Positions 30,606-54,228 of a DNA stretch of 64,000 bases are shown one piece after another; within the stretch, counting starts at the first letter, position 1; each line of letters opens with the position of its first letter. The DNA is taken from the IMG/VR virus record IMGVR_UViG_3300045135_000252, positions 1 through 64,000 of that record. One strand, 5' to 3'. Below the pieces are notes generated by a model. That model was not told the DNA's origin. It ran no database searches and was given only the letters and a program-made list of their open reading frames with translations. Position numbers and translations under genes: made by a program. The stretch comes from a virus.

Positions 30606-33600
30606 ATGGCTGATGTACGTTTACCTAGCGGCAAGATTATTTCAAATGTGCCGGATGGTGTTAGCCAAGCTCAACTAAGAGAGCTAGCTATAGCAAGTGG
30701 GCAATTTACTGAAGAAGATTTTGTTGCACAACAGCCAGCACCTTCCCAAGCAGATCAAGATGCTGAGCTAGCCGCTCTACGGAGCCGTGTATTAGCTAAA
30801 GACCCCGGGCTTTTCGACTATCTATACGATATCCCTAAAGGTATCGCTCGCGGTGTAGTAGGCGGTGCTGAGTTAGCAGCTCGTGGTATCACCAGCCAAA
30901 TAGCGGACGAGGCTAGCTTCCTAGACCCACTATACGGTATAGAAGAAGGTATTAGCGACGCTGAACGTAAGCAAAGAGCCGCGCAGATGCGGGCTGGTAT
31001 CGAGCGTAGGGTCGCACCAATAGATGAATTTTTAGCTGCTGACGCATCAGTGGAAGGTAGCATCCCATCTACATTCGCAGAAGCTGCTGGTTCGATTATT
31101 CCCGGTCTTGGTTTAGGCGCTATTCCTGTTGCTGGATTACCCACCGCTGGCGCTTATTTTTACGCGCAAGGACGAGGCGAGGCCGCGCAACGAGCTAGAC
31201 AAAGTGGGGCTACAGAAGATCAAATCGCGCAGTCTGCTGACCTTGGTGGATTGGTAGGTCTTTCTGAAATTATCCCAATTCAACGTATCCTTAAACGATT
31301 CCGTAGAGGAGTTGGTGACGACTTTGCTGATGAGGCGGAAGGGCGTATTAAACGCGCATTGAAAGCCGGTAGAGATGAAGCGATACAGGAAGCGGCTGCT
31401 ACTGTCGCGCAGAACGCTATTGCTAAAGGTATATACGACCCAGAGACAGATCTACTAGCTGGTACTCAAGAAGCGCTTGGTTACGGTGCGGGCGTCGGTG
31501 GTCTGACGCAGTTCTTGCTAGATATGTTCGCTAAACGTGTCCAAACTCCCGGACAGCCCGCTCCTACTGAAGGAGTACAGACAGATGAACTTGGACTTGA
31601 TGACGCAGGAGGAGCTGCAGTTAGCACTCCTGCACCTGTCGGGGGAGCTGGAGTTGAGGCAATTACCCCTGATGCTACAGGAGTTGAGCCACGAGGAGTG
31701 GATGTACCTACTGGCGCAGTTCCTGATGCTGGAGTTGGAGAAGGACCAGTCGGTGATCCATTAGCACTTGCTGCTGAACTAGAAACGGCTACTGAAGCAC
31801 AGGTAGCAGCACAGCAAGAATACGACAACGAGATTGATGAGTTAGTTAATCTTGGCCGTACGGAAGAAGAAGCGGCGTTAGAACTAAATACCGACCCGCT
31901 TAAAACCAATCTCGATGCAGCGACTACACGTGTAGCTACGTTGCAGCAACAGCTACAGCAAGCACAGGCACAGACATCTGAAGTCGCTAGTTTAGAACAG
32001 GCTGCCGCAGAACAAGCGGCGCAACAGGCTCCAGAGACAGCTCAACCTGTGGGGCGGACGAAGACTGTTACGGAAACTTCAGCGGATGGTGTTACTACTA
32101 CAAGAACTGAAGAAATACCTGAGACAACGGGTTTAGATACTCCGATAAATGACATAGTTGAAGGCAAAGTTGTTCAAAAATCTGCTCGTGAAATACTGGC
32201 CGAGCAGCAGCGTGTAAAGCAAGAGCAAGACAAACGTCGTGAGTTGTTAAGCGACCCTAAAAAACTTGCTGAGTACGCTGAAGATAAGGGCATTTCTGTA
32301 GAAGAAATGCAAGCCTTGCTAGAGCAGAATACGGTCGATAATTTAGCACGGGAGCTAGAGCTAGAAGACGTTGTTAATCGTCCCGAGTTTAGAGAGCTAC
32401 AAACACAAGAAAAAGAAAAAGCATCTAAGATTAAGTTTAAAGATACGACTGAAGCAGCACCTGAACCAGATGCAGTTGGTGAGCAGTTACAGCAGAATCT
32501 ATGGGAAAGCTATAGCAGTGGCCAAGGTGCACTTGCTAATGACGAGGTGGTTACTACTGCCCGTCAGATCGCCCAAGAAACTGGACAAGAATTTACTGAG
32601 ACAGAGTTCAAAGACTTTGCTTCTAAATATCGTGGTACACAGGCCCGTAAGCGTACAGTTGCTCAAGACTTCACTAAGCGTTTAGACGAACAGCGTCTAC
32701 AAGATACGCCAAAAGATATTCGTGATTCTATTAAGAAAGCACGTGAAATGATGCAGTCCAAAGGCCGACTAGCTGTTGTTGACCGTGATATTGGCGATAC
32801 TGCTAGAGACATTGGCAGTAACTTAGGGCCCGAAGCAGAGACGGCTTTCCTCAATGAAGCACAACGCATTGCTGACGATAACCTAAGACGTTACCAAGAA
32901 GAGAAAGCAGCGGTAGAAGCACAGGCTACTCCTGAAGGAGACTTACCTCCACTGCCAGACCTTATGGATACTGAGAACGAGTTCAGTATTCCAGAGCAAG
33001 CTGAGTTCCGTGACGACGCACTTGTCCGCGTAGGGCAAAACAACCGTTACCCTAAAGGCCCATTACTAGAGCCGTTCAATGCGTTCCGTGTGTACGCTTC
33101 TAAAAAGAACCGTGCAGAAGACGTTATCGAGCTAGTGGCTTTTGATATTGTCGAAGGTTCTACTGAGTACCGCAAGGTAGGTAAAACAGGCGCATTGGCA
33201 CCGGCTATGCCTAAGCTGAAAGAGCGCGATGAGCCAGCAGATGCTATTAGCGACCAAGAAAAGCGGTTCTTCAAGGGGCTAGGCCACGCTGATGTTGCAA
33301 GGGCTGCAGAGTCGTTCATGCGGGCACGTATGTCGCCAGACGCAATAAAGTTATTAGATGAGCGGATTGAGTTCTACAGAGACCGCCAACGTCGTGCTAA
33401 AGCTGCGGCTGCTGCACAAGCTAGTGGTAAGCCTTCTCGTGACCAGAAAATCCAAGCGCGTAAAAAGGCTCTTGCTAAGCAGTTAGAAGCTGAACGTACA
33501 GATACAACTGAAGCGGATTTGATGGAAGTAGCCACCGAAATCGGTGCATCCGATGCGGACGTACGAGCTGCTGAAGCAGAGCTATTAGATAACTATTTCG

Positions 33601-36600
33601 ATATTGCCGATGCCGAACTAACGCTTGATGAAGCGCTGTCTGACCTTGGTATTAACCCAGAGCTTAGTGCTAATGCTGTAACAGCTTTGGAGGGCAACGT
33701 GCATCCGCAAGTAATCGCTGAACTGCAAGCAGGTAATCTGAAGTCGGCGTTGCGGTATTTAACCCTTACATCTTCTAACCCAGACGTAGCGCGAGCTGCT
33801 CGTGTACTAGCTGACAAGCTAGGCGATACACGCATCCGGATGGAAGCTAACCTCCGTAACGAGGCGGGCAAAGAAGTAGCTGGTATGTTCAACCCACGCA
33901 GTAATACAGTAAGCATCAACACTGCTATGGACATTAAACCGCACACCATCCTGCACGAAGTGACGCATGCTCTGACCATTGCTGGGCTAGCTAACAAGTC
34001 CAGTGCTTTCACTAAGCAGCTAAACAACATTTACAACGATGTTAAAGGCCGCCTTGGTACCGCATACGGTACGCAGTCTTTGGAAGAGTTCGTAGCTGAA
34101 GCCTACAGTAACCCAGAGTTCCGCCGTGAGTTAGCTGGTCTGACTCCGAAAGGTGAGCAGATTTCTGTATTGCAGAAGTTGAAGAACACCCTACGTAACT
34201 TTGTACGTCGTTTGATGGGTAGACCCGCTGTCACAGAAGGCACGCAGCTCAGTGAGATTGATAACTTAATCGAAGCCATACTAAACCCAGCACCTCCATC
34301 GCAAGATGCAGAGCCGTTCTACCTGAATAGTCAGCGTGATGGCGTGATGGAAATGCTGAAGCGTATGACTGCTTCACTACGTAGAGCTGGACCGTTAAAT
34401 AAAGAACGCCGTCAGGAATACGTTGATGAAGCACTTGATGCAGTAACGCAAGATGCTCCAGACACTGCGGCCCGCGCTCTATATGGGTTTGGCGATATGC
34501 TGTTCGTTGCGGATATGGCTAAGAAGCTCGGTATGGGCGAGATTGGCGTTAAGATGCAACGTGTCATTGAGTTACAGCGTGGCGAGATCCAAAAGCGTGA
34601 TGATGAAACAGCGCAAGAAGTTAAAGAGCTTGCTAACTGGATGGCCAAGTCTGGCGGCAAAGTAGAAGAAGCATTTAATCGTGTTATCTACAGCCCAGAG
34701 TACGGCGCTACTATTTTCCAAGTAGACCCAACTAAGCCACGCAGTGCTTATGTTGGTAAGTTTGATAACAACGGTAACAGTTTAGAAGAAATCTGGGATG
34801 CACAACGTGCTGACTGGGCTATCCTGCAAGCCGCTGGCGGTGACGTACAATTTAATAAGCTACGTGAGTTCTATAAGAAGCAGCGTGAAGAGCTTATGAA
34901 CATCATTCAGGGTGTTATGGATGATGTATTCCCCGGTGGTGACCCAGCATCTAACCGTTTGCGTCAGACTCTATACAACAAGCTGTTAGCAGATGCCTCT
35001 GATCTCGATGTGTATTTCCCATTGGAACGTCAAGGCTCTTATAAACTGGTCTATAACTTTGTGCCGGGGTCAGAACCAAAAGGTTCACCACCATATGCAG
35101 TAGAAATGTTCACTACTTCTCGTGCTAGAGACAGAGCAAGAGCTGAGTTGATGAACAATCCTGACGTAGACAAGGCAAGTATTGATGTAATAGACGGAGA
35201 GTCTTTAACAGCGCACTACAATCGCACGCCTCCTAACTCATTTATTAAAGACTTGTTATCAGCTATTGAGAACAACCCAGAGATTAGCAATAACGAGGCG
35301 ACCAAAGAGCAGGTATTGCAATTATTTATTGATGCGCTTCCACAGACAGCTTTGGCTAAATCGTTGCGTAGACGTAAAAACGTAGTTGGTTACGCTTCTG
35401 ATTCTTTATTAGCCCTTAAATCTCGTGGGTTTGATACAGGCAGACAAATATCTAAGTTGAAGGCTACGGCTCGTTTGCGTCAGCTTGAAGCGGATGCTGT
35501 AGGGTTTGCTACTCCATCATTGGCGCAGATCAATGCTACTAAAGCAACGATGCCAAACGCTACGCCTCGTCAAATAGCAGAAGCATTGAATACAACGGTT
35601 GATTACCTGAACAATGTAGATCAGATAATTGCACGGGAAGGTATTTGGAAACGTCTGATCCGTCCATTTAGAGGTGAACGTACTCAGGCTCAAATCGAAG
35701 CTGATATTCAAAGATACTTGATTGATCCTATTCGCCGTACTAAGGACGAGTTGGTTATGCGTGCAGAGTTTGCACGTATGGGTGCCCGCCACAAGAGTAT
35801 TGAGAAAGCTGTGCGTTTCGCTAACCAGTTAGCGTTTATGGCGACAATCGGCTTCAACCCTTCATCTGCTGCAGTTAACTTGTCGCAGATACCGTTGTTT
35901 GTGTACCCATACCTTGGTGCTGATTATGGCTACGGTAAGACAGGCACGGCTTTCAAACGCGCTCACGCACTTCTGGGTGCGTATAAGAACGACATTGAGC
36001 GTTACTACAACGTGGATGAGAACGGCAACTACACTGTAATTGACTCGCCAGATATGTCGCCAGCCAAGCGCAAGGTACTTGAAGATTTGGCTCCTATGGT
36101 AGAAGAAGCATCTGCACGGGGGCTATTGAACAGATCATACTTGCTTGACGCACTCGGATTGGAAGAAAGCGGACGCAGCGCAAACGTGATTGATAAGGCT
36201 ACTACGTTAAGTGCTGTGATGTTCAACCACGCGGAACGCTACAACCGTCAGGTTACGTTGCTGGCTACGTACCAGCTAGAGTTAGATCGACTGCAAAAAG
36301 AGAATGCTCAGCGCGAAGGTAAAGCGAAGCTAGCTGACGTAACTATTCGGAATCGTGCTATCAAACAAGCCATTATGCTTACACAGCGCACCAACGGTGG
36401 TTCTGTACTTGAGACTGGTCCACGCTACGCACAGCAAAATATTGGACGTATAGCGTTGATGTATAAAGCATACGGTCTGCGTATGTACAACTCGATGTTG
36501 GACTCAGCAAAAGAATTAGCGGAGAACTTCTTCCCCGGTAATGATCCAGAAGCTAAGCGGATACGTAACAAAGCGTTCCTGCAGATGGTGGGCATCCACG

Positions 36601-37421
36601 GTTCAGCGCTGTTCTTTGCTGGTATCCACGGTATCCCGCTGTACGGCGCGGCGCAGTTGTTAGCTGACCTATTCTTCTTAGGCGACGATGAAGATGATTT
36701 CAACACGTTGATACGTAAACAGGTTGGTGAAACGTGGTACAAGGGCTTAGTCAATGAAATGACTGGGGTAGATATTGCTAGCCGTGTGCGTTTGACAGGC
36801 TTACTGCTACAAGAGAATAGGTATAACACAGACCCTTCTGTTGAAGAGTTTTTTGGTCAGTACCTAGGTGGTCCAGCACTAAGTGTTGCTAAGAAGATGA
36901 TACGTGGCGTGCAAGATTTACATGAAGGTGATGTACAGCGTGGTGTAGAGAACTTATTGCCATCCGCCGTAGCAAATGCGTATAAGTCAGCCTTTGGGCG
37001 CTACCAAGAACAAGGTGGTATATACACCCGTCGTGGCGATCCTATCTACTCTGATATGACTGGCGGAGAACTCATAGCACAGGCACTTGGCTTCGCTCCT
37101 GCTGAGTATACGTTTAAACAAGAGCGTAACTTGCGTAATAAGCGGGTTGAGAAAGCTATCCTGACTGAACGTACCAAGCTAACTCGTAAGTATTACGTGG
37201 CGTTGCGGCTAGGGGACATCGACAAAATACAAAGAGCGCGTCAGGAAATCTTAGATTTCAATGCTAAGCACAGAGATCCGGACATCATTATTGATGCGGA
37301 AGATATTAAGAAGTCTATTCAGCGTCATAGAGAAACATCTCAGCGGATGTACGACGGTGTGACTATTAACCCTGCATTACGCAGAGCAATCGAACTAAGT
37401 AATCAGGAATACAACTACTAA
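30606..37421 (+). CDS. Giant internal virion/polyvalent protein with zincin metallopeptidase and PLxRFG/LPD-like domains
   Basis: 2271 aa; ILHEVTHA...EEFVAEA zincin motif; YFPLERQG; helical C-terminal half. Confidence 0.65.
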   Translation: MADVRLPSGKIISNVPDGVSQAQLRELAIASGQFTEEDFVAQQPAPSQADQDAELAALRSRVLAKDPGLFDYLYDIPKGIARGVVGGAELAARGITSQIADEASFLDPLYGIEEGISDAERKQRAAQMRAGIERRVAPIDEFLAADASVEGSIPSTFAEAAGSIIPGLGLGAIPVAGLPTAGAYFYAQGRGEAAQRARQSGATEDQIAQSADLGGLVGLSEIIPIQRILKRFRRGVGDDFADEAEGRIKRALKAGRDEAIQEAAATVAQNAIAKGIYDPETDLLAGTQEALGYGAGVGGLTQFLLDMFAKRVQTPGQPAPTEGVQTDELGLDDAGGAAVSTPAPVGGAGVEAITPDATGVEPRGVDVPTGAVPDAGVGEGPVGDPLALAAELETATEAQVAAQQEYDNEIDELVNLGRTEEEAALELNTDPLKTNLDAATTRVATLQQQLQQAQAQTSEVASLEQAAAEQAAQQAPETAQPVGRTKTVTETSADGVTTTRTEEIPETTGLDTPINDIVEGKVVQKSAREILAEQQRVKQEQDKRRELLSDPKKLAEYAEDKGISVEEMQALLEQNTVDNLARELELEDVVNRPEFRELQTQEKEKASKIKFKDTTEAAPEPDAVGEQLQQNLWESYSSGQGALANDEVVTTARQIAQETGQEFTETEFKDFASKYRGTQARKRTVAQDFTKRLDEQRLQDTPKDIRDSIKKAREMMQSKGRLAVVDRDIGDTARDIGSNLGPEAETAFLNEAQRIADDNLRRYQEEKAAVEAQATPEGDLPPLPDLMDTENEFSIPEQAEFRDDALVRVGQNNRYPKGPLLEPFNAFRVYASKKNRAEDVIELVAFDIVEGSTEYRKVGKTGALAPAMPKLKERDEPADAISDQEKRFFKGLGHADVARAAESFMRARMSPDAIKLLDERIEFYRDRQRRAKAAAAAQASGKPSRDQKIQARKKALAKQLEAERTDTTEADLMEVATEIGASDADVRAAEAELLDNYFDIADAELTLDEALSDLGINPELSANAVTALEGNVHPQVIAELQAGNLKSALRYLTLTSSNPDVARAARVLADKLGDTRIRMEANLRNEAGKEVAGMFNPRSNTVSINTAMDIKPHTILHEVTHALTIAGLANKSSAFTKQLNNIYNDVKGRLGTAYGTQSLEEFVAEAYSNPEFRRELAGLTPKGEQISVLQKLKNTLRNFVRRLMGRPAVTEGTQLSEIDNLIEAILNPAPPSQDAEPFYLNSQRDGVMEMLKRMTASLRRAGPLNKERRQEYVDEALDAVTQDAPDTAARALYGFGDMLFVADMAKKLGMGEIGVKMQRVIELQRGEIQKRDDETAQEVKELANWMAKSGGKVEEAFNRVIYSPEYGATIFQVDPTKPRSAYVGKFDNNGNSLEEIWDAQRADWAILQAAGGDVQFNKLREFYKKQREELMNIIQGVMDDVFPGGDPASNRLRQTLYNKLLADASDLDVYFPLERQGSYKLVYNFVPGSEPKGSPPYAVEMFTTSRARDRARAELMNNPDVDKASIDVIDGESLTAHYNRTPPNSFIKDLLSAIENNPEISNNEATKEQVLQLFIDALPQTALAKSLRRRKNVVGYASDSLLALKSRGFDTGRQISKLKATARLRQLEADAVGFATPSLAQINATKATMPNATPRQIAEALNTTVDYLNNVDQIIAREGIWKRLIRPFRGERTQAQIEADIQRYLIDPIRRTKDELVMRAEFARMGARHKSIEKAVRFANQLAFMATIGFNPSSAAVNLSQIPLFVYPYLGADYGYGKTGTAFKRAHALLGAYKNDIERYYNVDENGNYTVIDSPDMSPAKRKVLEDLAPMVEEASARGLLNRSYLLDALGLEESGRSANVIDKATTLSAVMFNHAERYNRQVTLLATYQLELDRLQKENAQREGKAKLADVTIRNRAIKQAIMLTQRTNGGSVLETGPRYAQQNIGRIALMYKAYGLRMYNSMLDSAKELAENFFPGNDPEAKRIRNKAFLQMVGIHGSALFFAGIHGIPLYGAAQLLADLFFLGDDEDDFNTLIRKQVGETWYKGLVNEMTGVDIASRVRLTGLLLQENRYNTDPSVEEFFGQYLGGPALSVAKKMIRGVQDLHEGDVQRGVENLLPSAVANAYKSAFGRYQEQGGIYTRRGDPIYSDMTGGELIAQALGFAPAEYTFKQERNLRNKRVEKAILTERTKLTRKYYVALRLGDIDKIQRARQEILDFNAKHRDPDIIIDAEDIKKSIQRHRETSQRMYDGVTINPALRRAIELSNQEYNY

Positions 37422-37444
37422 AAAAGACCCCGCACGAGGCGGGG
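37420..37444 (-). terminator. Intrinsic terminator of the leftward operon at the strand-convergence point
   Basis: CCCCGC-5 nt-GCGGGG stem followed on the - strand by TCTTTTTT. Confidence 0.8.
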
Positions 37445-37512
37445 CACAGCATAGGGAGTCAACCCTTAGAGGTAACCACGAAAACAATTTGCAAAGTCGC
37501 AACTCATTTCGT
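37420..37512 (-). ncRNA. Candidate trans-acting anti-RBS small RNA (~90 nt)
   Basis: Possible TTTACG-18-TACAGT promoter (37548-37519); 5' hairpin; exposed UGGUUACCUCU and GGUUGACUCC complementary to phage RBS motifs; intrinsic terminator. Confidence 0.45.
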
Positions 37513-37526
37513 AGGTAAACTGTATC

Positions 37527-37721
37527 CTAAAGTCGCCATACCCGTAAACCCCTAACTCCTTCTTCGATAACGACTTTTGTCAAAATCTTGTATTTAAGCC
37601 TGTCAGTCACCGCTTTGATCTCATCTCGTGCTGACTTTGGGTCCAAGCAGGGTATGAAAAATGAGTAACCCCGCTTGAACTTTTTCCAGTTAATCTCGTA
37701 ACTGACCTTCTCCACCTGCAT
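37527..37721 (-). CDS. Small hypothetical (possible DNA-binding) protein
   Basis: GYSFFIP...GLRVWR; last gene of the replication operon. Confidence 0.7.
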   Translation of the reverse strand: MQVEKVSYEINWKKFKRGYSFFIPCLDPKSARDEIKAVTDRLKYKILTKVVIEEGVRGLRVWRL

Positions 37722-40542
37722 CTACGGTTTCCTCAACCTCAAGCATTGCGTCCACATCTAAGAACTCGCTGTTATCGCAGTCAAGTACCAAAGCCCTAGT
37801 AGCTGGGGATGAGATCTTCATGCCCTTAGACATACGCTTGTATGTGGTCTCTTTGAGAATCCCTTTCTTTGTAAGGTCTTTCAGGATTCCCTTGTAGTTC
37901 AAGCGGTATTTCACACAGTCTTCCTTGAACGCCTTTGCTGATATGTACATCAACTTAGTGTCAGGCTCGTACCGTATGAATAGATTACCTCTTGGCTCCA
38001 TCAACGGTAGCGTTGGCATCTTAGACCGTGAGTCCACTTCATCGTTGACCACAAGGATGTTCTGCAGGTGCCGGTTAATAAAGTCACCGATTACAGCTAC
38101 CACATCATCCACAGGTGTGCGTACATCTTCACGTAGTTCAGGGAGTAACTTCGCACCGCACCATTGGTAGATACGCATGACGTCCCAGTCGATAAGTCCT
38201 AGATTCCGTGCGATCAAACCGCCTGTAATGTTTGCGGCGATGATTGCAGACCAGAAGCGTTCTTTCTGTGTGATCTTAAACTCACGGTCTACTTTCTCTT
38301 GAATCTGACGGATAGCCGCCTTTACTTCTTCTAAGTTATTCACAAGATATTCAGCGTATATGTCGCCCGCATGCCCGTAGTTCTCAGGAAGCTCAATATC
38401 AAACTTATACTTGGAGGTTACGTCGTTAGCGATCTCTTCGCTGGTAGGGATTTTGTACTCGATGATCCGCATCATTTCTGCTTCTGGGCGGTTCTTTGCC
38501 GCCGCTAGAGCTTCGTAGAACGAGCTGTTTGCAGACGTAGTGACCAAAGTACACCAGTTGGTCAGGTTTTTACGCAGCTCGTTAGTGGACTGCTTCATGC
38601 GCTCTTTCCACTTACCCTGCGATACACCGTAGGCTAGGTCTGATACTTCCTGCGGAGCGCACTCAGTCATCTCGTCTAGCGTTACCGATAGGTTGTTATG
38701 CACACCAAGGCGCATAAACTTAGCGTTCATGGTGTCAGCCTTGAGGCCAGTTAGGTTCTTTGGGTGCCCCCATACGCTGTTCTGCATGTACAGCACGGTA
38801 GACTTACCGTCACCGGAGCCTTCCGCGACCAGACTTACAAGCGCACCTTGCTGACCTGTGTATTTGAAAATCGGCGCACCGAAAGCACATAGTGTGGCAA
38901 ACGCCTGTGGTTCAAGCCCTTTCCTGCCGTAGATGCTGAAGATTTCTTTCCACTTCTCGAATGACCCCGCCTTCTGTAAATGCTCTACAAATGTCTCTGT
39001 AGATGGCGATGGGGGCGTGTGGTACGTACCATCTGCAGTTATCTCTCTATCTCCAATGATAAATTTGCTGTCATTGTCAGCCCATCCAAACTGTAATCTC
39101 ATTAGCTCTGCCTTCTTTTTTGTCTGCATTTCACGTACAGATGCAGTGATGTACCAACTCAGTAACTCACTTTTTTTACTAGCGCCACAAAGCACACCGT
39201 GCTCTGCTAATAGCTTTCGTACTTCTCTTGGCTCTGTTAGCTGTGAGTTAGGGATAATAAATTCAAGAACCCCATCGTGCGGAGTGTGCAGTTTAAACAC
39301 CGCTACGTCCTTCTTGATTGGGTCTTTCATACGTTTCAACACGTATAGATCGTGCTCGTATACCAGCACTGGCTCTTCTTCAGCATTAGCAGAGTCGTAC
39401 CAGATACCACCTGTTTTGCCACGGAAGAACGGAAACGGATACTCAGGGATTTTGTACTTCTCTTCAACACCGTCTTCTTCGATGCTTATGATATTGTCCA
39501 TCTCACTGGCTTTTTCTACCTCACGGCCAAGCACGATGGGGCTTTTAATCTTGCCTTTGAACGGACAACCATCACACCCGCCGGGGTTATTTTCCTCGAA
39601 CTTCTCGCAAGTATGTGGCCCAAGTATATGTTTTATCTTGTGTTCTACTTCGCCCGGGTCATAGTCTGGGTGGTCTGAAGATAGCTTGTGTATGGCTTTG
39701 TCCTTATCTGTACAGAACTTTGCGACAGATAAAGCATTGAACCATCTAGGCTCCACTAAGGTTTCACGGTCTTCATAGCAAGATAGAAGCTGTTGACAGC
39801 CATCACCGTTGCCACTGCGGATCATGATCTTCTTAAAGCTATTAGTCGTAGCGTCAGCAAACTGCTGTCCTAACGCCGTTAACTCACGTTTTGGCGCGGT
39901 CTCAACTTTATCCTCTACACCAAGTATGTCCCGTAACTCATTGAAATCTATAGGGTCAGCTTCCTGAACTACAGATACTGGCTTAGCTGGATCGTCTTTA
40001 AAGTTGAGTGTGCCCGGAACTCTAAGTACACGTGCAACCTCAAACACCGCAGGGTCTACATATAGCTCATGCGTAAAGCACAGCTCACGTAGGCGGTGTG
40101 CGACTGGCTCCCACTGTTCACGGGTTACTTCCTCAGTCAGTGCCCAGTACACGTGGATACCACGGCCAGAGTTGACGAGTATAGGTTCAGGCAGTCCTAC
40201 CAGTTCGCAGAAAGCATCTAGTGCTTCCTTACCACTGTCTTGATCTGCGTAACCATCAGGGCGTCCTGTCTTTTCGTTGACCTCTGCCTTCGTGGGGCCA
40301 CAGTCTATGTCAAGCCAAAAGGCTTTGAGCGACTGTACGTTGTCTTTCTTTCTGTCTGCATCGGTTTGGAATTTAGCCACCGCGAAGAAAGCATTGCGTT
40401 TATCAGCTACGAACTGCTCTGCTAGCTCGTCTAGTTCCTCACGGGTTTGTACAAGTTTCTGTACAATGCTCCTCCCTTTGATACCGACAGCGCAGAACCA
40501 TCCATCTTTCGGCTGTACTGCGTCTAATAGGTCGAATGTCAT
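37690..40542 (-). CDS. Primase-helicase (AEP-like N-terminus plus DUF927/P-loop helicase)
   Basis: FWLDID, NSGRGIHVYW and VLRVPGT primase motifs; Cys cluster; GSGDGKST and TLDE. Confidence 0.8.
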   Translation of the reverse strand: MTFDLLDAVQPKDGWFCAVGIKGRSIVQKLVQTREELDELAEQFVADKRNAFFAVAKFQTDADRKKDNVQSLKAFWLDIDCGPTKAEVNEKTGRPDGYADQDSGKEALDAFCELVGLPEPILVNSGRGIHVYWALTEEVTREQWEPVAHRLRELCFTHELYVDPAVFEVARVLRVPGTLNFKDDPAKPVSVVQEADPIDFNELRDILGVEDKVETAPKRELTALGQQFADATTNSFKKIMIRSGNGDGCQQLLSCYEDRETLVEPRWFNALSVAKFCTDKDKAIHKLSSDHPDYDPGEVEHKIKHILGPHTCEKFEENNPGGCDGCPFKGKIKSPIVLGREVEKASEMDNIISIEEDGVEEKYKIPEYPFPFFRGKTGGIWYDSANAEEEPVLVYEHDLYVLKRMKDPIKKDVAVFKLHTPHDGVLEFIIPNSQLTEPREVRKLLAEHGVLCGASKKSELLSWYITASVREMQTKKKAELMRLQFGWADNDSKFIIGDREITADGTYHTPPSPSTETFVEHLQKAGSFEKWKEIFSIYGRKGLEPQAFATLCAFGAPIFKYTGQQGALVSLVAEGSGDGKSTVLYMQNSVWGHPKNLTGLKADTMNAKFMRLGVHNNLSVTLDEMTECAPQEVSDLAYGVSQGKWKERMKQSTNELRKNLTNWCTLVTTSANSSFYEALAAAKNRPEAEMMRIIEYKIPTSEEIANDVTSKYKFDIELPENYGHAGDIYAEYLVNNLEEVKAAIRQIQEKVDREFKITQKERFWSAIIAANITGGLIARNLGLIDWDVMRIYQWCGAKLLPELREDVRTPVDDVVAVIGDFINRHLQNILVVNDEVDSRSKMPTLPLMEPRGNLFIRYEPDTKLMYISAKAFKEDCVKYRLNYKGILKDLTKKGILKETTYKRMSKGMKISSPATRALVLDCDNSEFLDVDAMLEVEETVDAGGEGQLRD

Positions 40543-40565
40543 CCCTAAATCCTTGCTGTGTAATT

Positions 40566-40802
40566 TTATTTGTCAGCGGCTAGTGAGCTTATTATTTCTT
40601 GTATCTGCTCCAGCTTGGCACGTGGGGCGTTAACCCCACAGAACCAGTTGTATACAGTCTGCCTTGTGACTTCCAAGTGAGCCGCTACGTCTGAGACGGG
40701 CACATCACGTTCGATGCAAACCCGCCCCAGTTGTACGCCCAACAAACGGTCATCGGCTTCTTTATTTAGCTCGATTAGCCTATTGCTGTAGCCATAGCTC
40801 AT
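40566..40802 (-). CDS. Cro/XRE-like HTH regulator
   Basis: VSDVAAHLEVTRQTVYNWF. Confidence 0.8.
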   Translation of the reverse strand: MSYGYSNRLIELNKEADDRLLGVQLGRVCIERDVPVSDVAAHLEVTRQTVYNWFCGVNAPRAKLEQIQEIISSLAADK

Positions 40803-41707
40803 CAGTCGTCATCGCTCCACGCACTCACTACATCAGCGAGACTATTAGTTTCAGGTTTAGGTTCGGCTTTCTTTGCCTGACGCTTAACCGGCTTGGCTTC
40901 TTCTACTACCGGCTCTTCTTCCGGTTCGTCAGAATACACGATCTGCTCTGGTTCACTAGCAGGTAATGCAGTCACTTGATCTGTCTGCGCTGTAGTGATC
41001 TTCGTGTACATATCTGTATCTGGGTTCTTCTGCGCCGCGAGAACCAGCTCGTACTCCTCGTCAGACACCTGACGGATTGGCTTGAAGTTAAGCACATAAG
41101 TCTGGCTTTGGTTGTTAGGATCGTGAGCGATCTGCGTAACCACGGTATCTGGAGATTCTCCGTTACCCGCAAGGAACTTGGTGTAGCTCTCAAACGGATG
41201 CGTATTACCTACACCCTTACCGAACAATGACTTGGACGGAATCTTGAACTGATACACAGTACCTTTAGGATCACCCTCAACCATCACAGCGATGCGGCGC
41301 TGGAACTTACATGCACGGCGGCCACCGCTAGCAGAACCTTGTACATTCTGCGGGCATGTAGCGCATGCTGTTGACTGTGGATTTGAGCACCCTTCGTCAG
41401 GCACATCGCCTTTGTTAGACCAGCAATCAGGTAACGTAGGGTTCTCAGGGTCATACTGTGAGCCATAATACTCACGAGACACCTCTTTGATTGCACCTAC
41501 GATAATCACGTTAAGCGCATCGCGTACTGGGGCACCAGCCTGTTGGCCGTTAACAATGCGAACAAAGTCGCCAGAGTTACGTGCTTGGATACGACGAGTG
41601 TTAGACGTTGTAGATGCCGGAGCAAATACATCGCCCAACGCGCCTTTACGTGGAGTTGATACTGTTACGCCAGTATTGTTTTCAAAAATTGAGACTTGCT
41701 TGCTCAT
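40802..41707 (-). CDS. Single-stranded DNA-binding protein (probable)
   Basis: Start reassigned to MSKQ after AGAGGT RBS; Cys cluster; acidic tail ending WSDDD. Confidence 0.6.
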   Translation of the reverse strand: MSKQVSIFENNTGVTVSTPRKGALGDVFAPASTTSNTRRIQARNSGDFVRIVNGQQAGAPVRDALNVIIVGAIKEVSREYYGSQYDPENPTLPDCWSNKGDVPDEGCSNPQSTACATCPQNVQGSASGGRRACKFQRRIAVMVEGDPKGTVYQFKIPSKSLFGKGVGNTHPFESYTKFLAGNGESPDTVVTQIAHDPNNQSQTYVLNFKPIRQVSDEEYELVLAAQKNPDTDMYTKITTAQTDQVTALPASEPEQIVYSDEPEEEPVVEEAKPVKRQAKKAEPKPETNSLADVVSAWSDDD

Positions 41708-41717
41708 TGTGTACCTC

Positions 41718-42116
41718 TTATTTAGAAGTTGGTTTACGGACTTGCACGGTATATTTGCGGTCGGCTTGAAGCCCTGCTGGTAATACATCAGGGTTTTCCT
41801 CAAGGAATTGCTTCATGTTGCCGTTGTGGATTCTCTGCTCAAGCAGATGAGGAGCGTCATGTTCCTTAATTAGCTTGTACATAGCCTCCCAGTCACTCGT
41901 CCAATACCGTGACGTTATACGACGAGTGACCGTGCCTTCTGGGGTTTTGAAACCGTCTTGGCCGTTTTCCTCACATATTTCTAGTAAGGCTTGGCCTACG
42001 GAATCTAGTTGCTCTTTAAGAGCAGACATTTCTTCTTTGTGCTGGTGTTCTTTTTCGCGTATTGCATCACGAATTTTAAGATACACGGGCACAAGTTTAT
42101 CGGCTGGTGTTGCCAT
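41718..42116 (-). CDS. Replication-region coiled-coil protein
   Basis: 132 aa; first gene after the 42150 promoter. Confidence 0.65.
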   Translation of the reverse strand: MATPADKLVPVYLKIRDAIREKEHQHKEEMSALKEQLDSVGQALLEICEENGQDGFKTPEGTVTRRITSRYWTSDWEAMYKLIKEHDAPHLLEQRIHNGNMKQFLEENPDVLPAGLQADRKYTVQVRKPTSK

Positions 42117-42149
42117 AGTTAGTACCTCTTTTGGTTGACTCCATTAACA

Positions 42150-42177
42150 ACTATAGTGTTGTTTTTGACTTTGTCAA
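42150..42177 (-). promoter_or_regulatory. Sigma70 promoter for the SSB/primase operon
   Basis: TTGACA-16-TATAGT on the - strand. Confidence 0.7.
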
Positions 42178-43730
42178 GAACTTAATTCTTGTCTGTACAG
42201 GTCGATGATCTTCTCGTGATTGTTGATATTATTTTGGAGCATCTTGTACAGGCGTTCTTCTGTTGGGCTTCCTTTAACATGCACAATGGTCATAGCGTTC
42301 TTCTGCCCGGGGCGGTTGATACGCGCATTGGCTTGCAAGTAAGTCTCAACACTGGTGACTGGTGCATACCAGATAATCGTATTTGCCGCAGTCAAAGTGA
42401 GTCCATGCGACGCGGCTTGCGGTTGAATAAGTAGAACACGAGGTTCGGGCTGTTCTTGAAAACTTTGAACAATATCACTGCGCTTGTTGACAGAAACTTT
42501 GCCGTTAATAACCCCACACGTATAGCCTTTATCCTCAAGATAAGTGCGTAGTAACTCAATCGTGTGCGTAAAGGGAACGAAGACAAGCACTTTGTGTGAT
42601 GACTCATTGATAACTTCCTCGATAACTTTGAGGCGGTTGGATACATCAAACTCGATAACTTCACGGGTATCTGTGTATACACAACCACCTGATATTTGTA
42701 ATAGCTTATTCATCGCAGTCGCCGCATTGACCGCAGTTACGTACTCACCATCTGCTTCCATCATTAGCTGTTTCTTCAGCTCGATGTAATACTTCTCTTG
42801 TTGTTTGGTCAGCGGTGCATCTCGTTCTACGTGCGTAACTTCAGGCAGATCAAGACACTGATCTTTCTCAAACCGTATGGCTGGCTGTAACAATCTATGG
42901 ATGTAGTCCTGTGCTTTTGGCTTTGGCACCCACTTAAACTGTGTAACTTTGTACATCACAGAGTCACGGAAATGACTGTAGAACTTAGGGCAGTCTTTTG
43001 GATTTACTAGCTTAGCCAGACCATAGGCATCTAGTGGAGATTGTGCCGCTGGCGTACCTGTTAGCATCCACAACCACTCGGTGTTCTTCATGATGTTGCA
43101 GAGGACTTTCCAACGGTTAGTCTGCGGGTTCTTGTAGGCATTGGCTTCATCGACCACGATCATGTCGAACCCACCAGCCATAATCTCTTCTTTGACTACG
43201 TTGAGTCCGTCAAAGTTAATGACTACAAACTCAGAGCCAGCTTCGATAATCTTCTTACGCGCACGCTTGTCACCATATGCAACGGAACAGCTACGGTGCA
43301 TTGCAAACTTAAACAAGTCCTGCTGCCACGCTGATTTCATAATGGATAACGGGCAAATCACAAGCACGCGCTTTACGCGGCCTAGCTTCATCAGATAATC
43401 AGCCGCCCAGATTACTGATGCTGTCTTACCTGTACCCTGTTCGTTAAAGCAGAAAGCCTTCTTGTGTAGTGACAAGAACGATGCTGTTTCTTTTTGGTGA
43501 TCGAATGGTGTGAACTTGCCTGTCCATTCATAGTCGCGTTTGATGGTTGATGGCGGCTTCTTAAAAGGAAGAGTGGCAAGGGTCTGCATTTCATCGAGAC
43601 CCCAGTGTATAGCCACTGTATATACGTCATCGTCTTCTTTTTCTAAGATCGCGCTCTTTTTGATTGCATCCGTGATGAGTTGCGGATTGCGTGTCCGTAA
43701 TGTCAGGACTTTATTTTCTACGACTTCCAT
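42174..43730 (-). CDS. SNF2-family (SF2) helicase
   Basis: EQGTGKT, VVDEA, LTGTP, HGLTL, QANARINRPGQ. Confidence 0.9.
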   Translation of the reverse strand: MEVVENKVLTLRTRNPQLITDAIKKSAILEKEDDDVYTVAIHWGLDEMQTLATLPFKKPPSTIKRDYEWTGKFTPFDHQKETASFLSLHKKAFCFNEQGTGKTASVIWAADYLMKLGRVKRVLVICPLSIMKSAWQQDLFKFAMHRSCSVAYGDKRARKKIIEAGSEFVVINFDGLNVVKEEIMAGGFDMIVVDEANAYKNPQTNRWKVLCNIMKNTEWLWMLTGTPAAQSPLDAYGLAKLVNPKDCPKFYSHFRDSVMYKVTQFKWVPKPKAQDYIHRLLQPAIRFEKDQCLDLPEVTHVERDAPLTKQQEKYYIELKKQLMMEADGEYVTAVNAATAMNKLLQISGGCVYTDTREVIEFDVSNRLKVIEEVINESSHKVLVFVPFTHTIELLRTYLEDKGYTCGVINGKVSVNKRSDIVQSFQEQPEPRVLLIQPQAASHGLTLTAANTIIWYAPVTSVETYLQANARINRPGQKNAMTIVHVKGSPTEERLYKMLQNNINNHEKIIDLYRQELSS

Positions 43731-43998
43731 TCTTTTTGACTGACCTATCGCTGTTGCGAGAGAACGAACGGTTTGCCGATGCGCTCTTTACTCGCAGGTT
43801 ACCTTTACCGTTAGACCCGCCCTTTGAAATAGGTTTCTTATGGTCTACATCTTTGCCGTCGCCTTTCTTTACGCGACCTTCTCTTTCTAATTTCCGTCTA
43901 GCGGCGTTGCGCTTAGCGCGATTCTTTTTCTGTTCCTCTGTGCCACCGTACTGTTCGTACTCTTTCTTGTACGGGCGTTTCTTGTTTACATACGGCAT
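43711..43998 (-). CDS. Small HNH endonuclease-like protein
   Basis: DVDHKKPISKGG.N...NLR...ANRS. Confidence 0.7.
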   Translation of the reverse strand: MPYVNKKRPYKKEYEQYGGTEEQKKNRAKRNAARRKLEREGRVKKGDGKDVDHKKPISKGGSNGKGNLRVKSASANRSFSRNSDRSVKKNGSRRK

Positions 43999-45976: not shown

Positions 45977-46217
45977 TTGAGTTACCTCTCTTTTTAGTCC
46001 ATTTAGTTATTTCCTCCTCAAGGTGTCTATCTACGATGTAGCCCTTAAACGGAGGATTCAGTAGGCTTTCGCCCCTTTGTCTATACGATCTGGCCTTGGC
46101 CTCGTCGTCTAGCATCTCGTATTCCTCTGCGAGGAATAAGTACCACTTTGCGGCACTTTCGATTGTGATCCCCATGCTTTCCATAAGGTCACGCTCAACT
46201 GTTGGTAGCTTTCCCAT
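45963..46217 (-). CDS. Hypothetical protein
   Basis: 84 aa in an overlapping gene chain. Confidence 0.55.
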   Translation of the reverse strand: MGKLPTVERDLMESMGITIESAAKWYLFLAEEYEMLDDEAKARSYRQRGESLLNPPFKGYIVDRHLEEEITKWTKKRGNSNEND

Positions 46218-48963: not shown

Positions 48964-49243
48964 AAGTAATTACCTCTAATACTTCAACGATATTATCTTC
49001 GTTTATAACTCTGGTTATGCCGCCCGCACTCCGTATGTCTCGCATCTCTTTTTCTTGTAGTGCAGTTGGCTTATTGCTACCTGCCTTGCACTCAATGCCG
49101 ATGAAGACACCGTTGCAACAACAGATAATGTCAGGCACACCGCTACGTCCATACCCGTGCGTAGCAGGGAAGAAGTAGTACACGCCATGTTCCTTGAGAA
49201 CCTTAACGATCTTGTCTTTTACTTTCTTTTCAGGTGTAGCCAT
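48914..49243 (-). CDS. VRR-NUC nuclease (Holliday junction resolvase-like)
   Basis: PEKKV, GVPDII, GIECKA, PTALQ. Confidence 0.85.
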   Translation of the reverse strand: MATPEKKVKDKIVKVLKEHGVYYFFPATHGYGRSGVPDIICCCNGVFIGIECKAGSNKPTALQEKEMRDIRSAGGITRVINEDNIVEVLEVITYAQEHGDSHGSYGEPS

Positions 49244-49278: not shown

Positions 49279-49339
49279 ATACTTTTTTGGGGTGATCCGA
49301 CTAACAAATGTTAGTCCGACCTGTTCGTTGTATAGACGT

Positions 49340-49363
49340 AAAAAAGCCCCGACTAGCGGGGCT
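49340..49363 (-). terminator. Intrinsic terminator ending the early operon
   Basis: AGCCCCG stem followed by TTTTT on the - strand. Confidence 0.8.
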
Positions 49364-49368
49364 TCGAT

Positions 49369-49533
49369 TCACTGTTGTGATTCAGCGTAATTCGTAAGTA
49401 CAGTCCGAATCATCTTCGTGTAGTTAGGCCATTGCTTGTAGTAGTCAAGCACTTCCTGCGGTATACGCACGTTTACGTGTACCAGTGTAGGGGCTTTCTG
49501 TTTTCCGCGCCCCTTCCGTTTAGGTTGCTCCAT
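49369..49533 (-). CDS. Ribbon-helix-helix (BrnA-like) DNA-binding protein (54 aa, not in ORF track)
   Basis: RKGRGKQK...VHVNVRIPQEVLDYYK...YTKMIRTVL; GGAGG RBS. Confidence 0.65.
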   Translation of the reverse strand: MEQPKRKGRGKQKAPTLVHVNVRIPQEVLDYYKQWPNYTKMIRTVLTNYAESQQ

Positions 49534-50401
49534 TGTCTTCCTCCAAGCTGACGTAATAATGTGTTTCGGTTTCGCGGTAGCCCACGTTAATTAGGGTTTG
49601 CCCATTCTCTATGAGCTTCAACATACCGACCCTGCGTTTTAGCAAGTCGGGTAGTGTAGCATTTTCGTACGTGTAGAATTGGCCGTCGTCTGTTTCCACG
49701 GCATACGTGTTCCCATGAATTAGAACAACCGCCCCTTTCTTTTCTTTCTCGCATTTCTCAATGCTCCTCTTAATCTCGCTATCCTCGTAGGCTTCTCTTA
49801 GTCGCTGTGTTTGTTTGTAGCCATGCTCTTCAGCTATCCGCATATACTTTTCCAAGTCACTCATCAGATAGTCAGACAGGTGATGACAAAACTTCTGGAA
49901 GTGGTTGTGCCACTCACCAGACGCGCAATACGCATTAGTGCCCACGCTTCTACGTACTGTGCTACGTGCTTCGCTCATCAACTCCTTCAGGTCTTTCGGT
50001 CTGAAGTTCTTGAGGATTAGCTTCTTCGCTTTGTCTAGCTTCGTAGTCTTATCCGCGTTGCCACGCTCACGCTTACCCCATATGCGATGGTTGCTGATTG
50101 TGTAGCAGGGTTTGTGGCCGTAGTAGTCACGACCAATATCGCCAAGCTCTTCGCCATCACAATACACAACCCATCGGTGCGGGTAATACTTCTCGTCAGC
50201 ACACCCCGCATTGGTAGCACGTAGGTGATAGCCTCGGAACTCCCACTTAGGGAACTGCTTCGCTAATGGTAAGAGCAAGTCACCCATGAACTTATCCATG
50301 TGCAACTTGTCCATGATGTTGTTGTCAGCAAGTGTCTGATCGGACAGCATCAAGACCACGTTCGGGTACTCACTTAGAAATTGATGTTTGTTTTGCGACA
50401 T
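49520..50401 (-). CDS. Hypothetical early protein
   Basis: Start reassigned to MSQNK after GGAGGTAA. Confidence 0.7.
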   Translation of the reverse strand: MSQNKHQFLSEYPNVVLMLSDQTLADNNIMDKLHMDKFMGDLLLPLAKQFPKWEFRGYHLRATNAGCADEKYYPHRWVVYCDGEELGDIGRDYYGHKPCYTISNHRIWGKRERGNADKTTKLDKAKKLILKNFRPKDLKELMSEARSTVRRSVGTNAYCASGEWHNHFQKFCHHLSDYLMSDLEKYMRIAEEHGYKQTQRLREAYEDSEIKRSIEKCEKEKKGAVVLIHGNTYAVETDDGQFYTYENATLPDLLKRRVGMLKLIENGQTLINVGYRETETHYYVSLEEDNGAT

Positions 50402-54132: not shown

Positions 54133-54228
54133 TTTAGTTACCTCTAATGTAATAGTTGTTAATGGTCTGGCTAACAAATGTTAGTGCGACCCCACTAGCG
54201 TATGTGTTCATTCCGCGCCAGTGTGTAT

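What the first reader, a model, noticed from the sequence alone, without database searches (positions are those of the whole stretch)
37420..37548. Candidate phage small RNA antisense to a shared extended ribosome-binding motif of the early genes
Seen: the ~100-bp gap at the strand-convergence point reads on the - strand ACGAAAUGAGUUGCGACUUUGCAAAUUGUUUUCG-UGGUUACCUCU-AAG-GGUUGACUCCCU-AUGCUGUG, then a terminator hairpin and U6. It has a 5' stem (ACGAAA/UUUCGU) and a possible promoter TTTACG-18-TACAGT. UGGUUACCUCU pairs over 11 nt (one G-U) with AGAGGUAACUA, the RBS just upstream of the early genes at 51264-51274, 54135-54145 and 58705-58715; it pairs over 10 nt at 56394 and 45980, with shorter cores at 48970, 50404, 41712, 42123 and 52963. 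GUUGACUCC pairs with GGAGUCAAC at 58070-58078 and 42134-42142. Inference: one RNA made from the replication operon could shut off translation of many early genes by occluding their common RBS, i.e. an RNA-based early-to-late switch. Caveat: the GAGG core is ordinary Shine-Dalgarno; only the extra UAACUA/GUCAAC pairing is specific.
Basis: partly seen in the sequence, partly recalled or inferred. Interest (0 to 1): 0.85.

Follow-up and report, generated by a model that had tools for sequence, protein, structure and literature searches.

The report
Phage RNA that pairs with its operon's start
At the end of this uncultured aquatic phage's replication operon lies a conserved small RNA element whose exposed bases are complementary to the ribosome-binding site of the operon's first gene, and the two sites change together across dozens of related phages, which points to RNA-based self-regulation.

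Summary
Window 37420-37512 (- strand) holds a 5' stem-loop, two C/U-rich stretches (GGUUACCUCU, GGUUGACUCCCU) and an intrinsic terminator with U6. The early-gene motif AGAGGTAAC is over-represented (6 hits, 0.51 expected).

Both stretches together are complementary to the ~26-nt 5' UTR of one mRNA. That mRNA belongs to the gam-like gene (ATG 42116), the first gene of the operon that ends in this element. The operon runs from a TTGACA-16-TATAGT promoter (11/12) to the terminator.

Among relatives, 47 of 62 unique pairs of gam 5' UTR and 3' element keep at least 8 nt of perfect complementarity over the Shine-Dalgarno (SD) sequence plus spacer. Different spacer sequences are each matched by the 3' hairpin loop (permuted pairings: 0 of 10,000 reach the observed mean).

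The seed also matches 9 of 40 early but 1 of 66 late translation starts. A distant lineage with a different seed matches its own early motif (6/38) and not this phage's.

Best reading: an autoregulatory 3'-end RNA, like OppZ/CarZ or the icaR 3' UTR. A wider role on early genes is possible. No RNA data exist, so expression, trans versus cis action and repression are inferred.

The parts
37420..37512 (-). Candidate RNA of about 92 nt: stem-loop 1, two seeds, terminator. It could be a 3'-end-derived RNA or an independently transcribed sRNA.
   Evidence: Sequence. Folds with z of -2.0, 6 of 200 shuffles as good. Conserved in L002-L007 and in metagenome contigs.
37478..37512 (-). Stem-loop 1: a 6-bp base (ACGAAA/UUUCGU) under a variable apex.
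   Evidence: The base is kept in 5 of 5 variants, with one AU>UA compensatory change (L005) and one G.U (L006). The apex is diverged with indels but folds as a hairpin in 3 of 4 variants; the MFE fold of L006 differs. The differences listed in metagenome contigs cluster at 37489-37517.
37468..37477 (-). Seed 1, GGUUACCUCU: complementary to the early RBS motif AGAGGUAAC(C) and to AGAGGUA in the gam-like 5' UTR.
37453..37464 (-). Seed 2, GGUUGACUCCCU: a perfect 10-nt complement to GGAGUCAACC at the 5' end of the gam-like mRNA. It can form a small GGG/CCC hairpin with loop UUGACU.
   Evidence: It is homologous in position to the loop and 3' arm of the anti-SD hairpin of distant relatives.
37420..37445 (-). 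Intrinsic terminator (7-bp stem with 6 GC pairs, 5-nt loop, T6). It works for the - strand only: on the + strand no T run follows the hairpin.
37519..37548 (-). Possible promoter of the RNA: TTTACG-18-TACAGT. The -35 lies inside the last codons of the 64-aa ORF, and the -10 lies just after its stop codon. A start about 7 nt downstream would fall at A37512, the first base of stem 1.
   Evidence: The sequence is present. It scores 8/12 and is not called by the scanner. In 41 of 57 unique relatives the best -35/-10 pair ends 6-8 nt past the stop codon, often TATACT. No difference is listed at 37518-37532 in 4 metagenome runs. This part is inferred.
37527..37721 (-). Last ORF of the operon (64 aa, no family hit), conserved in relatives.
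   Evidence: tblastn found it in 77 of 81 loci.
37690..40542 (-). Primase/helicase (DUF927, phrog_25314).
41718..42116 (-). Gam-like gene (DUF7307, Pam3 gp33-like; weak Mu Gam hit). It is the first gene of the operon and the conserved target.
42117..42143 (-). 5' UTR of the gam-like mRNA: (U)GGAGUCAACC-AAA-AGAGGUA-CUAACU-AUG. This is the target of both seeds (10 bp, a 3x3 internal loop, then 7 bp).
   Evidence: cofold ddG -21.2 kcal/mol. The TSS is inferred from the promoter position.
42150..42177 (-). Promoter of the operon, TTGACA-16-TATAGT (11 of 12). Its -35 lies inside the palindrome TTGAC-AAA-GTCAA.
   Evidence: Conserved in the relatives, including the distant lineages L009-L015.
54135..54145 (-). 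RBS AGAGGUAACUA of the 354-aa ATPase gene: an 11-nt perfect complement to the seed region. It stands for the secondary, lineage-specific candidate targets. The other RBSs in this group are at 51264-51274, 58705-58715, 56394-56404, 45979-45989, 48967-48977, 58069-58077 and 55760-55767.

Best explanation
The gap holds the 3'-terminal RNA element of a 4.7-kb replication operon. The operon runs promoter 42177-42150, gam-like gene, ~300-aa gene, HTH gene, primase/helicase, 64-aa ORF, this element, terminator.

The element is released as a stable RNA of about 92 nt. It comes either from a weak promoter that overlaps the last stop codon or by processing of the operon transcript. Its two single-stranded or loop-exposed C/U-rich seeds pair with the whole short 5' UTR of the operon's own first cistron. 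That pairing covers both SD-like boxes and so blocks ribosome binding. It probably also exposes the mRNA to RNases or to Rho. The result is negative feedback, or a timed shut-down, of the replication module.

Shown here: the sequence anatomy, conservation, structural covariation, seed-target complementarity and its covariation across lineages. Inferred: that the RNA accumulates, that it acts in trans, and that pairing represses translation. Because the seed is complementary to each lineage's preferred early RBS motif, several other early mRNAs may be co-targets.
For: 1. Anatomy. The strongest promoter-like site (11/12) and the strongest - strand terminator in 37400-43800 bracket the operon.

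2. Pairing. The predicted duplex is 10 bp, a 3x3 loop, then 7 bp, with ddG -21.2 kcal/mol, and it leaves stem-loop 1 and the terminator intact. This is the best of 39 early starts.

3. Conservation pattern. The seeds and terminator are invariant or nearly so in 5 variants at 72-90% primase identity, while the apex of stem-loop 1 diverges. Four DNA metagenome runs list no difference at 37419-37488, against 13 rows at 37489-37533 and 18 rows at 37355-37418 (54 further rows were not shown).

4. Covariation with the target. In 62 unique pairs of gam 5' UTR and 3' element, the longest perfect complement is at least 8 nt in 47, at least 9 in 44 and at least 10 in 31. In most it lies on the SD plus spacer, 0-3 nt from the start codon. 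The spacer variants UCAAC, CGAA, CGAC, CGAU, CAAC, CAAA, CAAU and CUA are matched by GUUGA, UUCG, GUCG, AUCG, GUUG, UUUG, AUUG and UAG. With permuted pairings the mean is 7.16 (sd 0.16) against 8.92 observed, 0 of 10,000.

5. Hairpin covariation. 4 of 6 pairs show compensatory changes. 40 cells have changes on both sides against 14.2 (sd 2.8) in shuffles (0 of 500). 91.8% of cells are paired against 45-65% when partners are slid.

6. Strand. The T run and the G.U pairs fit the - strand only.

7. Promoter. A -10-like hexamer at a fixed place after the stop codon is the best-scoring site in 41 of 57 unique relatives.
Against: There is no expression evidence of any kind.

The candidate sRNA promoter is weak (8/12) and was not called by the scanner. 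Its -35 lies in a conserved coding motif, so its conservation is uninformative.

Fifteen of 62 unique pairs lack a complement of at least 8 nt, among them the whole L169-L175 lineage, whose 3' element is short and has no anti-SD. Phage Rollin has no gap at all.

Folding z-scores are modest (-0.6 to -2.9). RNAduplex energies do not separate the gam site (-34.8) from the next hit (-34.5). The best late start reaches ddG -19.2 with the full RNA. The minimum ddG with the seed alone is reached by 3 of 60 full and 2 of 60 core-kept shuffles.

The permutation test ignores phylogenetic relatedness. The flank test for G.U against A.C mismatches was inconclusive (38 against 47).
Confidence: 0.6

Rival explanations
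1. Global early-gene translational shut-off. The RNA's main job is to occlude the lineage-specific extended Shine-Dalgarno motif shared by many early genes, acting as an RNA-based early-to-late switch. The gam-like 5' UTR would be only one of many targets.
For: Starts (-30..+3) with at least 8 nt of perfect complement to the cognate seed: 9/40 early against 1/66 late (G000), 9/39 against 0/45 (G001), 6/40 against 0/48 (G002), 6/38 against 1/46 (G003, different seed). Full shuffles reach the observed count in 0, 0, 1 and 0 of 500. Shuffles that keep the SD core reach it in 0, 0, 5 and 5 of 300. Non-cognate seeds score 0/38, 1/40, 0/39 and 2/40. The early-minus-late mean ddG is -2.32, and 0 of 60 shuffles reach it under either control. 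Seed 1 fits the ATPase RBS (11 nt) better than it fits gam (7 nt).
Against: Only gam-like keeps at least 8 nt in both lineages among 14 orthologous early-gene pairs. Mean ddG over early starts is not beyond shuffles (9 of 60 and 18 of 60). A seed selected only to match gam's RBS would match any gene that shares that RBS. About 30 of 40 early starts have no match. 'Early' is inferred from strand and gene content alone.
Confidence: 0.25
2. Purely cis-acting 5'-3' pairing. No separate sRNA exists. The 3' UTR of the full-length operon mRNA folds back on its own 5' UTR to mask the SD or to protect the ends, as in icaR or hbs mRNA.
For: The same complementarity and covariation apply. The sRNA promoter is weak. 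3'-5' UTR pairing within one mRNA is documented for icaR (PMC3868564, abstract read) and hbs (PMC5737220, search listing only).
Against: The ends are 4.7 kb and five cistrons apart, and the first cistron would be translated long before the 3' end is made. A position-conserved -10-like hexamer lies right after the stop codon in 41 of 57 relatives. Matches to other early mRNAs need action in trans.
Confidence: 0.15
3. DNA-level element. The two inverted copies (the gam 5' UTR and the gap) are binding or recombination sites for a phage protein and covary because both must fit that protein.
For: Inverted copies 4.7 kb apart bracket the replication module. The gap is a junction where different late genes are joined to identical early ends.
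Against: The shared segment is always the SD plus spacer next to a start codon. The 3' copy always sits in a hairpin with compensatory stem changes, between a -10-like box and a same-strand terminator. The 5' copy has no such palindrome. Perfect repeats are only 8-13 bp.
Confidence: 0.07
4. Neutral remnant or plain terminator region. On this reading it is a decayed + strand RBS or gene start, or a 3' stabiliser hairpin with chance complementarity.
For: The + strand reads like an RBS followed by ACG-AAA.
Against: The + strand frame is not conserved (25, 5, 3 and about 25 codons), while the motif is invariant and its neighbours vary. Covariation runs across 62 pairs.
Confidence: 0.03

Closest known systems
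OppZ and CarZ of Vibrio cholerae, autoregulatory 3' UTR-derived sRNAs (Hoyos et al. 2020, PMC7398697; abstract read)
   Same: An RNA at the 3' end of an operon, ending in the operon's terminator, base-pairs with a translation start of its own transcript. This gives post-transcriptional negative feedback.
   Different: Here it is phage-encoded. The target is the first cistron's whole 5' UTR through two anti-SD seeds. A separate promoter is possible. RNase E processing, Hfq dependence and Rho termination are untested. There is no sequence similarity.
icaR mRNA 3' UTR (UCCCCUG) pairing with its own SD in Staphylococcus aureus (PMC3868564; abstract read)
   Same: A C/U-rich anti-SD motif in a 3' region pairs with the SD of the same transcription unit and blocks initiation.
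   Different: icaR is monocistronic and the pairing is described within or between icaR mRNAs. Here the unit is a 4.7-kb, five-gene operon, the pairing extends into a lineage-specific spacer, and RNase III involvement is unknown.
c4 antisense RNA of phages P1/P7 (passages on the c4-icd-ant operon in PMC8198154, which cites Citron and Schuster 1990; that c4 uses two short complementary segments and differs between P1 and P7 is recalled, not read)
   Same: A phage RNA encoded in the same operon as its target pairs through short segments over a ribosome-binding region. The seed and target differ between related phages.
   Different: c4 lies upstream of its targets and serves immunity in a temperate phage. 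Here the RNA is at the 3' end of a replication operon, and no integrase or repressor was noted in the genes scanned. There is no sequence similarity.
Rfam RF00519 mmgR (alpha-r8 family)
   Same: A small hairpin, then a single-stranded GUU..CUCCCUA stretch, then a terminator (alignment).
   Different: The score is 23.2 bits against a gathering score of 41, with E 0.057 for 2 kb. It is not a member. The resemblance is a shared design: an anti-SD motif plus a terminator.
T4 RegA and RegB (recalled, not read here)
   Same: Phage-encoded shut-off of early mRNAs that acts at or near their SD or start regions.
   Different: Those are proteins (a translational repressor and an endoribonuclease). Here the agent would be an RNA.

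Membership tests
Autoregulatory 3'-end-derived sRNA (OppZ/CarZ type) | Lies at the 3' end of an operon and shares its intrinsic terminator | tested here: met
   The element lies between the last stop codon (37527) and the hairpin with T6 at 37445-37420.
Autoregulatory 3'-end-derived sRNA (OppZ/CarZ type) | Seed base-pairs with a translation initiation region of its own operon | tested here: met
   In silico only: 10 bp plus 7 bp, ddG -21.2 kcal/mol. 47 of 62 unique relatives keep at least 8 nt.
Autoregulatory 3'-end-derived sRNA (OppZ/CarZ type) | Released by RNase E processing and bound by Hfq | not testable with these tools
   No RNA data and no known host.
Autoregulatory 3'-end-derived sRNA (OppZ/CarZ type) | Represses synthesis of its own operon's proteins | not testable with these tools
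   Needs reporters or infection experiments.
icaR-type 3' UTR to 5' UTR anti-SD pairing | C/U-rich anti-SD motif in the 3' UTR, complementary to the SD of the same transcript | tested here: met
   CCUCU and CUCCC cores against AGAGG and GGAG of the gam-like 5' UTR.
icaR-type 3' UTR to 5' UTR anti-SD pairing | Both UTRs flank a single cistron, so folding back is plausible | tested here: not met
   Five ORFs and 4.7 kb lie between the two sites.
P1/P7 c4-type phage antisense RNA | RNA and target are in one operon, with the RNA upstream of its target sites | tested here: not met
   They share an operon, but the RNA is at the 3' end, downstream of the target.
P1/P7 c4-type phage antisense RNA | Serves immunity in a temperate phage | not tested
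   No lysogeny genes turned up among the 17 proteins scanned. The whole genome was not annotated.
Rfam RF00519 mmgR | Covariance-model score at or above the gathering score (41 bits) | tested here: not met
   23.2 bits.
Any Rfam 15 family | A match at gathering score in 36500-38500 | tested here: not met
   Four matches, all below their gathering scores.

The most novel reading that the evidence does not exclude
A family of phage-encoded 'private anti-Shine-Dalgarno' RNAs. Each lineage gives a set of its early genes an extended SD-plus-spacer word. It also carries, at the end of its replication operon, a small RNA that resembles the 16S 3' tail but fits that private word better than the ribosome does. 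Accumulation of the RNA would then switch off the replication operon and the marked early genes together, as an RNA-only temporal switch. Seed and word would co-evolve like a lock and key, which could also keep co-infecting relatives from cross-regulating each other.
Probability: 0.25. Interest if true: 0.85.

Novelty: new variant of a known kind. Interest (0 to 1): 0.66.

Why it matters
Few base-pairing RNAs of lytic phages have a known target, and I found none described as regulating the phage's own replication operon. Three searches of the paper library returned no such case, but they cover open-access papers only.

Here the target can be read from comparative data alone. The primase scan found 349 relatives in IMG/VR, and the best 80 were examined. 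Natural compensatory changes in them amount to a mutational test that nature has already run.

The finding offers three things. It extends 3'-end autoregulation (OppZ/CarZ, icaR) to viruses. It gives a concrete, cheap reporter experiment. If the wider early-gene matches are functional, it would be an RNA counterpart of T4 RegA/RegB.

It also shows that extended RBS 'words' in phage early genes can be lineage-specific and tied to a partner RNA. That matters for annotating and engineering phage gene expression.

Tried and rejected
- Near and distant BLAST of the region against 50,697 cultured phage records found no match. The closest cultured relative by primase, Pseudomonas phage Rollin at 30%, has no intergenic gap there.
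- RNA evidence: no RNA holder was listed for window 36500-39500. Expression therefore could not be examined. This is not evidence either way.
- RNAduplex scan of the genome: the gam site was the best non-self hit (-34.8) but barely above an unrelated site (-34.5). The measure allows long loop-rich duplexes, so I dropped it. Its first version timed out.
- Cofold ddG cross-test between lineages did not discriminate for the distant seed, because that seed is locked in a stable hairpin. I replaced it with counts of perfect complements.
I replaced it with a covariance model and pair counts. That alignment is fitted to the model.
- A flank test (G.U against A.C mismatches) meant to prove the RNA strand gave 38 against 47, which is inconclusive.
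- A + strand ORF from ACG and the - strand 35-aa ORF (37395-37502) are not conserved.
- mmgR or SorX membership: both are below the gathering score.
- - strand hits of model R1 upstream of the primase start in distant lineages are a different hairpin (GGAAGUGCAAACUUCC) without an anti-SD.
- The genome-contig scan for a host gave only one MAG contig, so no host could be inferred.
Only 7 were true relatives (alignment scores 138-180, next best 52).
No supplementary files of papers were consulted.


Full report
**Setting.** The window is the first 64 kb of a 73,626-bp IMG/VR virus record. A + strand structural block ends with a 2271-aa gene (30606-37421) whose C-terminal part resembles DarB. A - strand block (37527 to about 59500) carries replication and small unknown genes. 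It ends with a DUF927 primase/helicase (37690-40542) and a 64-aa ORF (37527-37721). The finding lies in the 105-bp gap where the two blocks converge.

**The observation.**
- The - strand reads: stem ACGAAA/UUUCGU, GGUUACCUCU, AAG, GGUUGACUCCCU, a 7-bp GC-rich hairpin, then U6.
- The terminator is unidirectional, because no T run follows it on the + strand.
- AGAGGTAAC occurs 6 times against 0.51 expected (0 of 100 shuffles). Four copies are - strand RBSs and one is the inverted copy in the gap.
- GGAGTCAAC alone is weak (3 against 0.42; 3 of 100 shuffles reach 3).
- TTTACG-18-TACAGT exists but scores 8/12, and the scanner does not call it.

**Conservation.** A primase search of IMG/VR gave 14 loci.
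- In the six closest (72-90% primase identity) the gap is kept with a telling pattern. The base of stem 1 is preserved, with one AU>UA compensatory change and one G.U. Its apex is rewritten with indels, yet it still folds as a hairpin in the window, L003 and L005 (the MFE fold of L006 differs). The 25 nt that hold both seeds, and the terminator, are almost invariant.
- Conservation stops right after the T run, where different late genes are attached.
- Contigs of four DNA metagenome runs list no difference at 37419-37488. They list 13 rows at 37489-37533 and 18 rows at 37355-37418 (54 further rows were not displayed).
- The + strand 'gene start' idea fails. After AGAGGTAACC-ACG the frame runs 25, 5, 3 and about 25 codons in the four variants.
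- Rfam has nothing at gathering score. The best match is mmgR at 23.2 against 41 bits, which reflects a shared design only.

**The target.**
It reads GGAGUCAACC-AAA-AGAGGUA-CUAACU-AUG.
- Just upstream lies TTGACA-16-TATAGT, 11 of 12 and the best promoter-like site in 37400-43800. The only strong - strand terminator in that span is the one in the gap.
- So the element sits at the 3' end of a 4.7-kb operon and is complementary to nearly the whole leader of about 26 nt at its 5' end.
- Cofolding predicts 10 bp, a 3x3 loop and then 7 bp, with ddG -21.2 kcal/mol. Stem-loop 1 and the terminator stay intact.
- This is the best of 39 early starts (-20.3). One of 64 late starts comes close (-19.2).

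**Covariation with the target.** A profile scan found 349 relatives, and the best 80 were kept (52-59% identity for most).
- I located the gam-like start and the region after the small ORF's stop in each locus. That gave 62 unique pairs.
- The longest perfect complement is at least 8 nt in 47, at least 9 in 44 and at least 10 in 31. In most it lies on the SD plus spacer, 0-3 nt from the start codon.
- The spacer differs between lineages (UCAAC, CGAA, CGAC, CGAU, CAAC, CAAA, CAAU, CUA). Each version is mirrored in the 3' element.
- In L172/L183 a second 11-nt segment pairs with the upstream part of the leader, like the two seeds of the window.
- Permuting the pairings gives a mean of 7.16 (sd 0.16) against 8.92 observed, 0 of 10,000. 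This test ignores relatedness.
- Fifteen pairs lack the match, among them the L169-L175 lineage with a short 3' element. Phage Rollin has no gap.

**Structure of the 3' element in relatives.**
- The seed forms the loop and 3' arm of a small hairpin: GGAAG-loop-CUUCC, GAGAG-loop-CUCUC, and also AGAAG/CUUCU, GGAAAG/CUUUCC and ACAAG/CUUGU.
- A covariance model built from 16 of these hairpins finds a + strand match at the expected place in 48 of 73 sources. It does not find the window's own divergent version.
- On the model-fitted alignment, 4 of 6 pairs have compensatory changes. 40 cells change on both sides against 14.2 (sd 2.8) in shuffles (0 of 500). 91.8% of cells pair against 45-65% when partners are slid.

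**A promoter for a separate RNA?** In 41 of 57 unique relatives the best -35/-10 pair ends 6-8 nt after the stop codon of the small ORF. It is often TTTACG-16-TATACT. The -35 lies in a conserved Gly-Leu-Arg coding motif, so only the non-coding -10 is informative. In the window a start 7 nt after TACAGT would be A37512, the first base of stem 1. This is suggestive and not shown.

**Other early genes.**
- Starts with at least 8 nt of perfect complement to the cognate 26-nt seed number 9/40 early against 1/66 late (this phage). They number 9/39 against 0/45 and 6/40 against 0/48 in two close relatives, and 6/38 against 1/46 in a distant relative whose seed is GUUGCUCCU and whose early motif is AGGAGCAAC.
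- Non-cognate combinations give 0/38, 1/40, 0/39 and 2/40.
- Shuffled seeds reach the observed counts in 0, 0, 1 and 0 of 500. Shuffles that keep the SD core reach them in 0, 0, 5 and 5 of 300.
- The early-minus-late ddG difference (-2.32) is reached by 0 of 60 shuffles.
- Against this, mean early ddG is not exceptional. Of 14 orthologous early-gene pairs between the two lineages, only gam-like keeps at least 8 nt in both.
- The matched genes include an ATPase (phrog_1297), next to a DUF2201 VWA/metallopeptidase gene, and several unknown genes.

**Interpretation.**
- The firmest statement: a conserved RNA-level pairing exists between the 3' end and the 5' leader of the replication operon.
- The most likely mechanism is occlusion of the first cistron's ribosome-binding site by a stable 3'-end RNA. 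This would give negative feedback, as shown experimentally for OppZ/CarZ (PMC7398697, abstract) and, within one mRNA, for icaR (PMC3868564, abstract). P1 c4 is the phage precedent for an antisense RNA in the same operon as its target (PMC8198154, passages).
- Trans action, accumulation and repression are inferred.
- The global switch is a live but less supported extension.
- DNA-level and remnant readings fit the hairpin covariation and the constant SD-adjacent position poorly.

**Limits.** There are no RNA data. No host is known. My gene starts come from a simple ORF/SD rule of my own. The covariation statistics are not tree-aware.

Noticed in passing
window 49301-58822: The palindrome CTAACA-WWT-TGTTAG occurs 10 times against 0.08 expected, all in the early block, usually as GACTAACAAATGTTAGTC. 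In three genes (starts 52952, 55281, 56151) the ATG lies in the centre of the palindrome. It may be an operator or an RNA hairpin that holds start codons.
   Followed up: partly
window 42165-42177: The palindrome TTGAC-AAA-GTCAA overlaps the -35 of the operon promoter. A TTGAC-NNN-GTCAA palindrome is kept in distant lineages (TTGACTTTGTCAA). It may be an operator, perhaps for the 78-aa HTH protein of the same operon (40566-40802).
   Followed up: partly
window 54226-54261, 56483-56518, 57642-57706, 58729-58793: Repeated blocks that read on the - strand as strong sigma-70 promoters (TTGACA-17-TACAAT). They are probably the early promoters.
   Followed up: no
window 30606-37421: A 2271-aa gene closes the structural block. 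Only its last ~530 residues match DarB-like antirestriction and giant-protein PHROGs, and it has no Pfam hit.
   Followed up: no
window 37419-37452: In four metagenome runs the summed contig depth rises two- to five-fold over the terminator in three of them (X2, X4, X5; flat in X3). Contigs break at 37419 in X2, X4 and X5, with different sequences beyond. The terminator is a junction shared by variants that carry different late genes.
   Followed up: partly
L190:4961-4985 (also L014, L217, L225, L159, L207): A conserved hairpin GGAAG-UGCAAA-CUUCC lies about 10 nt upstream of the primase start in the distant lineages. It looks like the 3' hairpin but lacks the anti-SD.
   Followed up: no
window 51738-54132: A phrog_1297 ATPase (53068-54132) lies beside a DUF2201_N/DUF2201 metallopeptidase-VWA protein (51738-52952; labelled HNH endonuclease in PHROGs) in the early block. 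Their RBSs match the seed by 11 nt (ATPase) and 7 nt (DUF2201 gene).
   Followed up: no
window 41706-41720: The ~333-aa ORF listed from TTG 41803 more likely starts at ATG 41706. That start follows the gam-like stop and has its own AAGAGGUAC RBS, so the two genes do not overlap.
   Followed up: yes
G003 (L148-L151) 34034 and 34061: A 27-bp tandem duplication of the start region (TAGGAGCAACCATGACCAAA) gives one early gene of the distant relative two in-frame RBS and ATG copies.
   Followed up: no
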